Assembly: GCF_003334765.1 (NCBI RefSeq)
Contig: NZ_QOWT01000001.1
Length of the DNA stretch: 64,000 nt
DNA from: Escherichia coli
Lineage (GTDB): Bacteria > Pseudomonadota > Gammaproteobacteria > Enterobacterales > Enterobacteriaceae
Reading direction: 5' to 3' (one strand)
Each line of letters starts with the position of its first letter. The stretch's first letter is position 1. Of this stretch, positions 21,929-24,826 are shown piece after piece. A program made the translations under genes and the position numbers. The notes below the pieces were generated by a model. The model searched no databases and was not told where the DNA came from. It worked only from the letters and a program-made list of their open reading frames with translations.

Positions 21929-24826
21929 TCACACCGAACGCGATTCAGGAGGAACTGTTTGGTAAATAGCACCACCGGATCTTGGGGGCGCTGTGATTAT
22001 TACTGTATTGCTATCACCGTCATTTTTGAATGTCACTTTACCAGTAGCATCAACGCCTACCCAGGAGGCCGAGCTTGAAAACGAATAATCAGCCGCCGTT
22101 TTTCCTGGTGCAAAGTTGTCATTATTCAACTGATAATACGCCCCGGTAAATCCCTGCGAAGGGAATGAAGCTGTCGGTAGGTTTGCACTATTCACTGACA
22201 CTGTACCCGTCATTGGTCTGGTTTCCGCGCTAATGAATTCTATCGTGGTACTCAGGCCCGCCTGATGAACACCATTCAATACGGGGATCAGCGTTGCGAT
22301 ACCCTCTCCGTCTCCTGTAACAGTAGCTTTGTAATCACCGTTGATATTTTGACTGTAATCAATTGCGCTAATTTTCATATAGGGCACGTTTGTACCTGAT
22401 TGCACAAATTCCATCCCTTCAGAATCTTTGATCGGATTGCCTGATATATCGTGCAGAACAAGATGTAGCTCAGCACTATCGGTAAAGTCCCCTTTCAGTG
22501 ATGACTGGTTGTTCTTAAGGATGGACTGCGAGGCGTCTGCTGGGCCTGCCACTAGCGATATATCTACTGTTTGCATTCCACCTGCGCTTATGACTGCGCT
22601 TACAGTGACGCTCCCTGTTATCGCTCATCTCACGTTTGTTGTCGCGATTCCGTTTTGATCGGTCACCGCTGTTAATGACGTTAATGTGGTGGAGCCGCTT
22701 TTTAAGGCGAAGTACACAGTGAGACCTTCGATCAGGTTACCACTGCCATCCTCAACCGTTGCCTTTAAGGTACTTAAATCACTGTTGGTGGCGGCGATAG
22801 TCGACGGATCAGCGATAAAGCTAGCAACATGTGCGGTGCTTGGGTTGCCAGTAACCTTCACGGTTGTCTGTGTCTGTATTGTGACGCCGTTATGGAACGA
22901 TGCAGTCACCGTATATGTACCGACTTTATTGCTGGTCAGAACGACTGGAGCCTGACCTGAAGAGTTGGTTCTCACTTTTCCGCCACTTAACGTCGCACCT
23001 TCTAGCGTTACGCTAAAGTTGATGACCTGACCCTCCACTGGAGTGCCATTTGCAGAGGTTAGCGTTGCCGTCAGAGTAGCGCCTTTAGGAGCATTGACAC
23101 CGATAAGCGGACTGGACGTGAGTGTCAGTTTTTCATCAATAGCCTCCAGTTGTTTCTCAAGTGAAGCTCCATTCGCTAGGGATGCTTTTACAGTATACGA
23201 GCCGTTTCTTTCAGACGTCATGGTGACCTCGGCTACTCCCTGCGTATTAGTAGAGACCGTGTTCTGGCTGATGATCATTTGCGAGGATGGCGCTGCACTG
23301 AATGTCGCGGGTTGATGCGTCACCGGGTTGCCAAACTGGTCGTTAACGTGAGCTTTAACTGCTATGTCTTGTGCGACCATGACCTGACCTTCAGGTATCT
23401 CCTGACTGGTAATCGTCGCAGAATTAACATCTACCTTGGCATTCAGTAATCGCGAGATGACTTCAGTAGGTTTATCTGCCAGAGAGGCTGAAACTGTTTT
23501 TAGTCCGACCTCGGTGCTTGTCACAAGAATTTCAGCGAAAACCTGATCATCCGTTTCAACGCTGGTGCTGCTTAGCGTGACGGAGGTTCCACGGAAATTA
23601 ACTTTTATACCTTCTACTGGGTTGCCGTTTCCATCAGTCACTGTTGCCTGTAGCCTGGTCATTCCAATGTTATTGGCGATGAAATTGTCCTCGGTAACGT
23701 TAAGATTAACCTGCGCAGTGAGCGTATCCGCAGTAAAGTTCACCACCAACTGCTCACTCTTACCGCCAACCATCGATGCTGTCACGGTATGAGCGCCTGC
23801 TTTTGTACCTTTCAGCGTGACTTTCGCTTTGCCATCGGCATCAGTAACCGCTTTGTCGCCATCGCTCAGCGTGAAGTTCGCCTTCACATCTTCCGGTAGA
23901 GTAAATGTTACCTCAGTGTTGGCTATCGCATTGCCCTCTGTATCAGCGACGGTGCTGTTAGTGTCGTGAGATCGTTATTGTCGGCAATCACCGGATCCTT
24001 CGAGGCTGCCAGCGTGATTTCAGCATTCGTGACGTTCGGCACATAGTTCACTGTTTGTTGCATCGAATCGCCATTTTCGAGGGTTGCCGTCACGGGAGTT
24101 CTTCAGGCTGAAATCTTCATCCACGCCCAGCGTGATTCTTGCGGTACCGAAGCGGCTTAACCAGTCTGTCATTACCCCTGAAGCCTGAGAAGAGGCCCAT
24201 CCACGTGCTATGTTTGCCGCTTGCTCGCTGTTCATATCTTCGGCGAGCAGAGATCCAATTAGCTGTGAAGTACTGGCTATCTGTTGCTCAAGGTTGCCAC
24301 TGCTGTTACCCGGCGGCGGGGTTAAATTTTTTTCACTAACTTGTGCCTGGACATCCAGTTCATCACCCGGGCGGACATTACGAACAAACGTACGAAACTG
24401 GTTGAGTTTGCGTAACAGGGGGGTATCTATAATTTGTTGCACAGGACAAATATATCTGGCTTCTGTACAGAGTCTTAAATTTTGACCATAAATAAAACCG
24501 TCCCTGTCAAGCATGCATAGTTTATCAAGTAGGTCTCCCACAAACTGCCTGAATTTTATTTTTCCATTAAAAGTTTGTATCTTCTTAAGTATCACAGGAG
24601 ACTGGAAATAGACCAATAGTAGGATGTTGCCACTCAAGGCATGACGATAAATATCGCTAGGAGTAATTTTTTGTTTTATGGCTTTGGTAGTGATCTCAAC
24701 TGCTTCCGTTATAGTGACCCATGTTGACATATAATGAGTTATAAGCAATGGCTGATATTTTTTTGACATAATATTATCTCCTTCTACACAACAATTCGTT
24801 CCGTTAAGGAAAAAGATTGGTGTCAC
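21929..24826 (-). pseudogene. yeeJ: yeeJ inverse-autotransporter adhesin remnant (large internal deletion, frameshifts, replaced N-terminus)
   Basis: Three ORF pieces (24020..24826, 22625..23887, 21929..22576); LysM-region sequence joined out of frame to C-terminal Big-1 repeats. Confidence 0.75.

What the first reader, a model, noticed from the sequence alone, without database searches (positions are those of the whole stretch)
21929..24826. yeeJ adhesin reduced to a remnant with an internal deletion and a foreign N-terminus
The LysM-region translation (…LRKLNQFRTF…ITLGVDEDFSLKNS) is joined out of frame to C-terminal Big-1 repeat sequence, so the beta-barrel and most of the repeats are missing. 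The first ~120 codons of ORF 24020..24826 do not look like a signal peptide and do not match the expected YeeJ N-terminus. This fits collateral damage from HPI insertion or deletion.
Basis: partly seen in the sequence, partly recalled or inferred. Interest (0 to 1): 0.4.

Follow-up and report, generated by a model that had tools for sequence, protein, structure and literature searches.

The report
Decayed yeeJ remnant beside yersiniabactin island
This is the broken remains of the E. coli adhesin gene yeeJ, fused to a fragment of a gene from the neighbouring yersiniabactin island; the same scar is in about 38% of complete E. coli genomes and is already described in the literature, so it is real but ordinary.

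Summary
On the minus strand, 24415..21962 is a yeeJ pseudogene holding about 820 of 2358 codons. Junction A (24416|24415) fuses codon 118 of a high-pathogenicity island (HPI) gene in frame to yeeJ codon 93. That gene lies just downstream of fyuA and is 308 aa in conjugative (ICE-type) HPIs. Junction B (24094|24093) is a clean 3.7-kb out-of-frame deletion that removes the beta-barrel and about ten Big-1 repeats. Further lesions are a 1-nt frameshift near 23953, loss of one Big-1 repeat, a TGA at 22625-22627, and loss of the C-terminal lectin domain (junction D, about 21972-21952).

It is not an assembly error: the whole arrangement is in 2037 of 5426 complete E. coli genomes and junction A in 2070.

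Insertion itself is harmless: strain 219 has an ICE-type HPI at asnT, an attR repeat and an intact yeeJ. Junction A is the published "unique right-border deletion" that immobilised the common E. coli HPI (Schubert 2009). Junction D and the frameshift also occur in HPI-negative strains. The TGA, a 9-nt deletion and other lesions are lineage-specific later decay.

Already known; low interest.

The parts
25420..27441 (-). fyuA, the last gene of the HPI core (context).
   Evidence: ORF list. RefSeq annotation of the 100% identical genome NZ_CP030768.1.
24770..25419 (-). AT-rich HPI spacer downstream of fyuA. Relative to ICE-type islands it lacks about 207 nt at roughly 25123-25135.
   Evidence: 98.3-99.2% identical to the ICE-type loci L003/L004. 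GC 0.32-0.36.
24416..24769 (-). First 118 codons of an HPI hypothetical gene that is 308 aa in ICE-type HPIs. ATG at 24769 with an AAGGAG ribosome-binding site. This is the 'foreign N-terminus'.
   Evidence: dN/dS is 0.18 against a 61%-identical Klebsiella aerogenes homologue, so it is a real gene. No Pfam, PHROG or NCBIfam match.
24415..24416 (-). Junction A: HPI gene codon 118 fused in frame to yeeJ codon 93, with 1 nt (G) of microhomology.
   Evidence: Three-way display against ICE locus L004 and K-12. Present in 2070 of 5426 genomes.
24095..24415 (-). yeeJ codons 93-202: the C-terminal half of LysM, the linker and the first ~60 positions of the IAT beta domain. Carries a 9-nt in-frame deletion (FARGFDNVRQGD -> FVRNVRPGD).
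   Evidence: The 9 nt are still present in the HPI-positive strain BCE049.
24093..24094 (-). Junction B: blunt deletion of yeeJ nt 608-4299 (3692 nt in K-12, 3691 nt in L021). It shifts the frame and shows no microhomology.
   Evidence: Present in 2058 genomes.
24020..24769 (-). Chimeric ORF of 249 aa: HPI gene 1-118, then YeeJ 93-202, then 23 out-of-frame codons. RefSeq annotates it as 'inverse autotransporter beta domain-containing protein' (WP_000039778.1).
23953..24093 (-). yeeJ codons 1434-1480 (a Big-1 repeat), in a frame of their own. Ends at a 1-nt deletion (GCAACC -> GCACC) near 23953.
   Evidence: The same 475 nt are 100% identical in the HPI-negative strain Z1323PEC0010.
23619..23648 (-). 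Junction C: in-frame loss of one 312-nt Big-1 repeat (K-12 codons ~1592-1695), by recombination within a short repeat (11 nt identical in the closest allele).
21962..23956 (-). yeeJ codons 1480-2248 (Big-1 repeats) minus one repeat. One open frame apart from the TGA at 22625-22627.
   Evidence: RefSeq pseudogene note: 'frameshifted; internal stop; missing N-terminus and C-terminus'.
22625..22627 (-). In-frame nonsense codon (GGA -> TGA), specific to one sub-lineage.
   Evidence: Absent in L008, L006, L010 and K-12. The exact 71-nt haplotype is in 678 genomes, including ST131.
21952..21972 (-). Junction D: the last ~110 yeeJ codons (C-type lectin domain), the stop codon and ~110 nt of 3' flank are missing. 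About 19 nt here are unmatched.
   Evidence: Present in 2088 genomes, including the HPI-negative L006 and L010.
20686..21801 (+). yeeL-type family 9 glycosyltransferase, intact here (context; chromosomal flank).
55867..55942 (-). asnT, the left attachment site of the HPI. The only copy of the 17-bp repeat on the island's borders.

Best explanation
The region is a non-functional scar left by a deletion that fixed the yersiniabactin island (HPI) in the E. coli chromosome, followed by ordinary pseudogene decay.

**Proposed history**
1. An ICE-type HPI integrated at asnT. This leaves yeeJ untouched.
2. One illegitimate deletion (1 nt of microhomology) then removed everything from codon 118 of the first gene downstream of fyuA to yeeJ codon 92. 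Lost with it were the island's excision, transfer and cargo genes, the right 17-bp attachment repeat, the asnT-yeeJ spacer, the yeeJ promoter, the signal peptide and half of LysM.
3. By chance the junction is in frame, which created a 249-aa chimeric ORF that uses the HPI gene's start codon and ribosome-binding site.
4. The yeeJ allele involved also carries a 3.7-kb blunt internal deletion, a 1-nt frameshift, loss of one repeat unit and a 3' truncation.
5. Individual HPI-positive lineages have since added further lesions.
6. The scar spread through the species together with the island by homologous recombination of the flanks.

**Shown here:** the anatomy, the junctions, the population frequencies and the intact state in strain 219.

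**Inferred:** the order of events, and that neither the chimeric ORF nor the remnant has a function.
For: - **Anatomy.** Junction maps against K-12, ICE-type loci and the closest full-length allele.
- **Right repeat lost.** The 17-bp repeat is present only in the four asn tRNA genes of the window.
- **Insertion alone is harmless.** Strain 219 has an ICE-type HPI, attR and an intact yeeJ.
- **Frequency.** The whole arrangement is in 2037 genomes; junctions A, B and D are in 2070, 2058 and 2088 of 5426.
- **Missing domains.** Only a fragment of IAT_beta survives, with no complete LysM and no lectin domain.
- **Ongoing, lineage-specific decay:**
  - the TGA haplotype is in 678 genomes only;
  - an A-run frameshift at codon 4 of the chimeric ORF in L008/L009;
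  - a further ~470-nt deletion in BCE049, which still has the 9 nt that the window lacks;
  - database variants of the chimeric ORF with internal deletions or frameshifts (P0010, P0019).
- **Relaxed constraint on the HPI fragment.** 4 nonsynonymous against 0-1 synonymous changes versus the ICE copies, while the full gene has dN/dS 0.18 against its K. aerogenes homologue.
- **Literature.** Schubert et al. 2009 (PMC2606025) describe a unique deletion of the fyuA-side border in all common-type E. coli HPIs. It removes the direct repeat and part of the adjacent backbone, and the island then spreads by recombination of its flanks. PMC10562709, Fig. 4 draws yeeJ-derived pseudogenes bordering the HPI. 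Martinez-Gil et al. 2017 (PMC5595812) link truncated yeeJ to the asnT/HPI site.
Against: - No expression data were available, so 'non-functional' is inferred from missing domains and decay.
- The chimeric ORF is intact in the window and in many genomes. With so little sequence diversity, selection on it cannot be excluded.
- The order of junctions B, C and D relative to A is not resolved.
- HPI-negative strains that share junction D or the frameshift could have acquired those segments by recombination from HPI-positive donors, rather than reflecting the ancestral state.
- The true ancestral island may have differed from strain 219's ICE, so the 32-kb deletion size is only a model.
Confidence: 0.9

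Rival explanations
1. Sequencing or assembly error: yeeJ is really intact, and the junctions come from collapse of the repetitive Big-1 array.
For: yeeJ is highly repetitive. Martinez-Gil et al. 2017 warn that frameshifts in such genes can be assembly artefacts. One RefSeq 'complete' genome at this locus (HS-02) does look reference-guided.
Against: The identical 3.65-kb arrangement is in 2037 independent complete genomes at >=98.6% identity, including CFT073, UTI89, Nissle 1917, O104:H4 and ST131. Junctions A, B and D lie in unique sequence, not between repeats. Only junction C lies in a repeat.
Confidence: 0.01
2. All lesions are collateral damage of the HPI: one island-associated event, or a burst of them, destroyed a previously functional yeeJ.
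For: Junction A is certainly island-linked. Junction B was found only in HPI-positive genomes (2058, against 2070 with junction A). No natural HPI-negative genome with junction B was seen (its four best hits are HS-02 and three similar records (two examined): HS-02 looks reference-guided, Z1323PEC0010 is a natural full-length allele without junction B).
Against: - Junction D is present in the HPI-negative strains 2022H048 and DCE7. These have an intact asnT-yeeJ spacer and a different 5' deletion.
- The 1-nt frameshift is present in the HPI-negative full-length allele of Z1323PEC0010.
- The TGA and the 9-nt deletion are later and lineage-specific.
- Junctions B, C and D are 0.3-2.4 kb away from the island border and are separate events.
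Confidence: 0.2
3. yeeJ of this allele type was already a pseudogene (1-nt frameshift, possibly the 3' truncation) before the border deletion, so the HPI deletion hit a dead gene.
For: - Strain Z1323PEC0010 is HPI-negative, and its allele is a natural one, diverging 0-4% from K-12 across the region missing from the remnant.
- That allele is 99.7-100% identical to the remnant on both sides of junction B and carries the same 1-nt deletion.
- 2022H048 and DCE7 share junction D.
- dN/dS of the remnant against K-12 is 0.25-0.29, so most of the divergence predates inactivation and inactivation is relatively recent.
Against: - Flanks of the HPI are known to recombine between strains (PMC2606025), so shared lesions may have been exported from HPI-positive strains.
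- In the 3' part, the HPI-negative remnants group with one HPI-positive sub-lineage (L008) rather than outside all of them. That fits export as well as ancestry.
- Only three natural HPI-negative genomes were examined.
Confidence: 0.45
4. The 249-aa chimeric ORF is a new functional gene kept by selection.
For: It has a strong Shine-Dalgarno sequence and an ATG inherited from a real gene. The fusion is in frame, the ORF is intact in the window, and RefSeq annotates it as a CDS in many genomes.
Against: - It has no signal peptide, half a LysM motif and a fifth of the barrel domain.
- The promoter scan found no sigma-70-like site upstream of the ATG (this is a weak test).
- The ORF is frameshifted at codon 4 in L008/L009 and cut short in BCE049, and it is disrupted in the database variants P0010 and P0019.
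- The changes relative to the ICE copy are almost all nonsynonymous.
Confidence: 0.03

Closest known systems
Common-type E. coli HPI with the unique fyuA-border deletion (Schubert et al. 2009, PLoS Pathog, PMC2606025)
   Same: Island at asnT. The fyuA-side direct repeat is lost. The deletion reaches into the adjacent backbone. The same junction is found in nearly all HPI-positive E. coli. All four points were verified here.
   Different: Nothing essential. This report adds base-level junctions, names the two genes fused, and shows that several of the yeeJ lesions are not part of that deletion.
ICE-type HPI (ECOR31-type / ICEKp-like), as in E. coli strain 219
   Same: Same yersiniabactin core through fyuA. 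The same gene lies downstream of fyuA, 97-99% identical over its first 118 codons.
   Different: The ICE type keeps the full 308-aa gene, an AlpA-type excisionase, the type IV secretion and mobilisation genes, cargo, attR and an intact neighbouring yeeJ. The window has none of these.
Full-length YeeJ inverse autotransporter (K-12, 2358 aa; Martinez-Gil et al. 2017, PMC5595812)
   Same: The remnant is homologous at 92-95% nucleotide identity to codons 93-202, 1434-1591 and 1696-2248.
   Different: It lacks the promoter, signal peptide, half of LysM, about 80% of the beta-barrel, about ten Big-1 repeats and the lectin domain. What is left is split by one frameshift and one stop codon.

Membership tests
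Common-type (immobilised) E. coli HPI right border | Island integrated at asnT, with a P4-like integrase next to the tRNA | tested here: met
   asnT lies at 55867-55942. The integrase frame is open at 54443-55705. ybtS through fyuA follow.
Common-type (immobilised) E. coli HPI right border | Loss of the fyuA-side 17-bp direct repeat (attR) | tested here: met
   CCAGTCAGAGGAGCCAA occurs only inside the four asn tRNA genes of the window. In strain 219 an extra copy lies 313 nt upstream of yeeJ.
Common-type (immobilised) E. coli HPI right border | The deletion extends into the adjacent chromosomal backbone | tested here: met
   The asnT-yeeJ spacer and yeeJ nt 1-276 are absent. HPI sequence abuts yeeJ codon 93.
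Common-type (immobilised) E. coli HPI right border | The same junction is shared across HPI-positive E. coli | tested here: met
   Junction A is covered in full in 2070 of 5426 complete genomes.
Functional inverse autotransporter (type Ve, YeeJ/intimin/invasin) | N-terminal signal peptide | tested here: not met
   yeeJ codons 1-92 are absent. The replacing N-terminus, MSKKYQPLLITHYMSTWVTITEAVEI..., has no hydrophobic core (read by eye; no predictor was run).
Functional inverse autotransporter (type Ve, YeeJ/intimin/invasin) | Complete IAT beta-barrel domain (PF11924) | tested here: not met
   Only model positions 3-64 of 279 match, against 2-279 in K-12 YeeJ.
Functional inverse autotransporter (type Ve, YeeJ/intimin/invasin) | Passenger repeats in one reading frame with the barrel, capped by a C-type lectin domain | tested here: not met
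   The frame shifts at 24094|24093 and near 23953, there is a TGA at 22625-22627, and the last ~110 codons are missing.
ICE-type HPI | Excisionase, type IV secretion and mobilisation module downstream of fyuA | tested here: not met
   Only 1004 nt of island sequence follow fyuA before yeeJ begins. Compare L004, L011 and L012.

The most novel reading that the evidence does not exclude
The in-frame fusion (first 118 residues of the HPI gene downstream of fyuA, half a LysM motif and the start of the YeeJ barrel domain) is expressed from the HPI gene's own signals. On this reading it has acquired a function in the roughly 38% of E. coli that carry it, rather than being inert debris.
Probability: 0.03. 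Interest if true: 0.35.

Novelty: already known. Interest (0 to 1): 0.1.

Why it matters
It matters little as a discovery. The scar is the published hallmark of the common E. coli HPI. It explains why that island cannot excise, and why HPI-positive strains (most extraintestinal pathogens) lack the YeeJ biofilm adhesin.

The modest additions here:
- the exact junctions;
- the identification of the fused HPI gene;
- a natural 'before' state (strain 219: ICE-type island, attR and intact yeeJ);
- evidence that part of the yeeJ damage is independent of the island, or later than it.

One practical point: RefSeq annotates the 249-aa chimera as a normal 'inverse autotransporter beta domain-containing protein', which could mislead adhesin surveys.

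Tried and rejected
1. **Naming the foreign ORF.** Pfam, PHROGs and NCBIfam gave no hit for the 179-aa or the 308-aa form. It remains a hypothetical protein.

2. **Searching for the intact ancestral allele.**
   - Strain XJ6.1 (L013) matched the last 107 nt before junction B at 99.1%, but overall it is no closer than K-12, about 93%.
   - Strain HS-02 (L020) at first looked like a perfect progenitor: full 5' end, remnant-type elsewhere, with junctions C and D. It is 100.0% K-12 exactly in yeeJ nt -394..307 and 592..4345. Those are the segments absent from HPI-positive genomes. It is remnant-type everywhere else. That pattern fits a reference-guided assembly of an HPI-positive strain, so I did not use it as evidence.

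3. **Chimeric query to find genomes with junction A but without junction B**. The listed hits start at query position 145 (yeeJ only), so none carries junction A without junction B: four allele matches (HS-02, reference-guided; Z1323PEC0010, a natural HPI-negative allele; two not examined) and ordinary K-12-type yeeJ. The order of A and B stays unresolved. BCE049 (L014) has a different internal junction (24114 -> 23645). This is either a further deletion or an independent one.

4. **Yersinia context of the ORF.** Contigs carrying the 107-aa form all end at that point, so nothing could be learned about its 3' neighbour there.

5. **Promoter scan.** Fewer sites than in shuffled sequence, and none upstream of the chimeric ORF. 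Uninformative.
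Full report
**Context**

The window is the E. coli asnT region carrying the yersiniabactin high-pathogenicity island (HPI). From low to high coordinates:
- amn (17562-19172, minus strand);
- shiA (19118-20434, minus strand);
- a yeeL-type family 9 glycosyltransferase (20686-21801, plus strand);
- the region in question (21929-24826, minus strand);
- fyuA (25420-27441, minus strand), then ybtE and the rest of the ybt/irp genes;
- the island integrase (54443-55705);
- asnT (55867-55942).

A RefSeq genome that is 100% identical over the region (NZ_CP030768.1) annotates the same genes.

**Checking the observation**

I aligned the minus strand of 21700-25500 with K-12 W3110 yeeJ (7077 nt, 2358 codons) using BLASTN and TBLASTN, and displayed each junction base by base. 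Relative to K-12:

| Window | Matches | Note |
|---|---|---|
| 24415..24095 | yeeJ codons 93-202 | 9-nt in-frame deletion |
| 24093..23953 | codons 1434-1480 | different frame |
| 23956..21962 | codons 1480-2248 | lacks one 104-codon Big-1 repeat |
| 21952 downwards | K-12 sequence from 110 nt past the yeeJ stop | chromosomal flank |

- The join at 24094|24093 is blunt, has no microhomology, removes 3692 nt and shifts the frame. The upstream ORF therefore reads 23 nonsense codons and stops at 24022-24020.
- Pfam places IAT_beta at residues 144-419 of K-12 YeeJ. In the 249-aa ORF only model positions 3-64 of 279 match.
- The weak LysM hit in K-12 YeeJ covers residues 79-99, so a start at residue 93 leaves only the second half of the motif.
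Martinez-Gil et al. 2017 assign the last 103 residues to the C-type lectin domain.

**The foreign N-terminus**

- Window 25419..24416 has no counterpart in K-12.
- The real start of the ORF is the ATG at 24769, eight bases after AAGGAG. The GTG at 24826 is only the mechanical ORF start.
- A protein search with the 118 residues found 97-99% identical proteins in E. coli and in records labelled Yersinia pestis, and a 61%-identical protein in Klebsiella aerogenes.
- Contigs encoding the longer forms show the gene about 870 nt downstream of fyuA. It is followed by an AlpA-family gene, DUF2857, TraR, Hha and a VirB-type secretion system, which is the ICE-type HPI.
- In E. coli strain 219 the gene is 308 aa.
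- The window is 98.3-99.2% identical to these islands from fyuA up to 24416. There the ICE sequence continues ...CTG ATA GGC... while the window continues with yeeJ ...TTA CGC AAA CTC....
- The fusion is in frame (I-D-T-P-L | L-R-K-L-N-Q) with a single shared G.
- The gene is real: dN/dS is 0.18 against the K. aerogenes homologue. It matches no Pfam, PHROG or NCBIfam family.

**Artefact or real?**

Megablast against 5426 complete E. coli genomes finds the whole 3.65-kb arrangement, covered at 80% or more in one piece, in 2037 genomes at >=98.6% identity. Short queries across single junctions give:

| Junction | Genomes |
|---|---|
| A | 2070 |
| B | 2058 |
| D | 2088 |

Carriers include CFT073, UTI89, Nissle 1917, O104:H4 and ST131. 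This excludes an assembly error.

**What caused it**

The 17-bp attachment repeat CCAGTCAGAGGAGCCAA occurs in the window only inside the four asn tRNA genes. There is no right-hand copy.

E. coli strain 219 provides the undamaged state:
- an ICE-type HPI at asnT, with the full 308-aa gene, type IV secretion, mobilisation and cargo genes;
- then a free copy of the 17-mer;
- then, 313 nt further on, an intact 7077-nt yeeJ.

So integration leaves yeeJ alone. The window type is derived by a later deletion from codon 118 of the 308-aa gene to yeeJ codon 92. This spans 32,452 nt in strain-219 coordinates (my arithmetic). It is a model only, because the true ancestor may have differed.

This is the event Schubert et al. 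2009 describe. [quoted passage not shown] The island is thereby fixed and spreads with its flanks by homologous recombination (PMC2606025). PMC10562709, Fig. 4, draws yeeJ-homologous pseudogenes bordering the HPI. Martinez-Gil et al. 2017 link the frequent truncation of yeeJ to its position next to asnT.

**Are the other lesions collateral to the island?**

*Junction D.* It is also present in two HPI-negative strains, 2022H048 and DCE7. These keep asnT and the native spacer (96.6% identical to K-12, so not copied from a reference). They then jump from just before the yeeJ start codon to about nt 5844, and from there are 96.5-97.1% identical to the window through junction D.

*The 1-nt frameshift.* An HPI-negative strain, Z1323PEC0010, has a full-length yeeJ of the same allele type:
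- it is 99.7% identical to the remnant left of junction B;
- it is 100% identical over the 475 nt to the right of B, including the 1-nt deletion near 23953;
- it is 97.7% identical over the 3' part;
- it retains the 3.7 kb lost at B, the extra Big-1 repeat and the lectin domain.

Its divergence from K-12 varies from 0 to 4% across the segment missing from the remnant, as expected of a natural allele.

So the frameshift and junction D are not confined to HPI-positive genomes. Either they predate the border deletion, or they were exported by recombination of the flanks. I cannot separate these two. In the 3' part the HPI-negative remnants share several variants and a 1-nt deletion with one HPI-positive sub-lineage (L008) rather than standing outside all of them, which keeps export plausible.

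*Junction B.* It was seen only in HPI-positive genomes. Its order relative to junction A is unresolved.

**Continuing decay**

Different HPI-positive lineages carry different extra lesions:
- The TGA at 22625-22627 is absent from L008, L009, L006, L010 and K-12. The exact 71-nt haplotype around it is in 678 genomes.
- The 9-nt LysM deletion is absent in BCE049, which instead has a further internal deletion, 24114 -> 23645.
- L008 and L009 have an extra A in the A-run at codon 4 of the chimeric ORF, which forces a later start, and a 1-nt deletion near 22081.
- Database variants of the chimeric protein include an internal deletion and a frameshift (P0019 and P0010).
- Against the ICE copies, the 118-codon fragment has 4 nonsynonymous and 0-1 synonymous changes.
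- Against K-12, the yeeJ pieces give dN/dS of 0.25-0.29. Most of their 5-8% divergence therefore arose while the allele was still constrained, and inactivation is comparatively recent.

**A trap**

A chimeric query (remnant left of junction B plus K-12 right of it) was matched at 99.6-100% by four genomes (HS-02, BHUCD01, VE-V11-M and Z1323PEC0010). Z1323PEC0010 is the natural full-length allele described above; HS-02 is the trap. HS-02 has no HPI, a full 5' end, and junctions C and D, so it looked like the progenitor allele.

However, it has zero differences from K-12 in yeeJ nt -394..307 and 592..4345. Those are exactly the segments that HPI-positive genomes lack. Everywhere else it is remnant-type or H1-type. 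This is what a reference-guided consensus of an HPI-positive strain mapped onto K-12 would look like. I did not use it as evidence.

**Verdict**

The feature is real and the description accurate. The cause is more specific than 'HPI insertion or deletion': the 5' fusion is the known immobilising right-border deletion of the common E. coli HPI. The remaining lesions are separate events, some shared with HPI-negative strains and some later. Neither the remnant nor the chimeric ORF shows any sign of function. Already known; low interest.

Noticed in passing
L020 (NZ_CP172818.1, strain HS-02) 8018-13071. Probably also NZ_CM183442.1 (BHUCD01) and NZ_AP027978.1 (VE-V11-M).: This RefSeq 'complete genome' is 100.0% K-12 exactly in the yeeJ/asnT segments that HPI-positive genomes lack (yeeJ nt -394..307 and 592..4345). 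Elsewhere it matches the HPI-linked remnant, and it has no HPI. The pattern suggests a reference-guided assembly of an HPI-positive strain. Such records slightly inflate the counts of 'HPI-negative' carriers of junctions C and D.
   Followed up: partly
L006 11692-13052 (strain 2022H048); L010 8921-10281 (strain DCE7): These HPI-negative strains have an ~895-nt yeeJ remnant. The native asnT-yeeJ spacer is joined, just before the start codon, to yeeJ nt ~5844. The 3' truncation (junction D) is the same as in the HPI-linked remnant.
   Followed up: partly
window 55703-55705 (minus strand): The HPI integrase frame is open for 420 codons, but the expected start codon reads ATA (…CAT ATA TCC CTT ACC GAC = H-I-S-L-T-D). 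RefSeq still annotates a 1263-nt CDS from this codon in the identical genome. Whether the integrase is translated is unknown.
   Followed up: partly
window 20686-21801 (plus strand): The yeeL-type family 9 glycosyltransferase next to the remnant is an intact ORF here and in other HPI-positive genomes. In K-12 it is a pseudogene with an internal stop.
   Followed up: no
window ~25123-25135: The AT-rich spacer between fyuA and the HPI gene lacks about 207 nt that the ICE-type islands have (L004 5427-5634). The missing stretch is flanked by a short A-rich near-repeat.
   Followed up: no
L005 6001-6441 (Klebsiella aerogenes contig): A 61%-identical homologue of the HPI hypothetical gene sits in an unrelated context. 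It lies next to a LuxR-type regulator, IS fragments and a polyketide/transketolase cluster, not next to fyuA. The family has no Pfam, PHROG or NCBIfam model.
   Followed up: no
L014 8084-8087 (strain BCE049); L008/L009 ~7323: HPI-positive sub-lineages carry their own extra lesions. BCE049 has a different internal junction (window 24114 -> 23645). L008 and L009 have an A-run frameshift at codon 4 of the chimeric ORF.
   Followed up: partly
L016-L019 (contigs with the 107-aa form of the HPI gene; one cluster member is labelled Yersinia pestis): Three of the four contigs shown end exactly at codon 107 of the gene downstream of fyuA (the fourth, L016, runs 26 nt further), which suggests a repeated element (for example an IS) abuts it there. 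The neighbour could not be seen.
   Followed up: no
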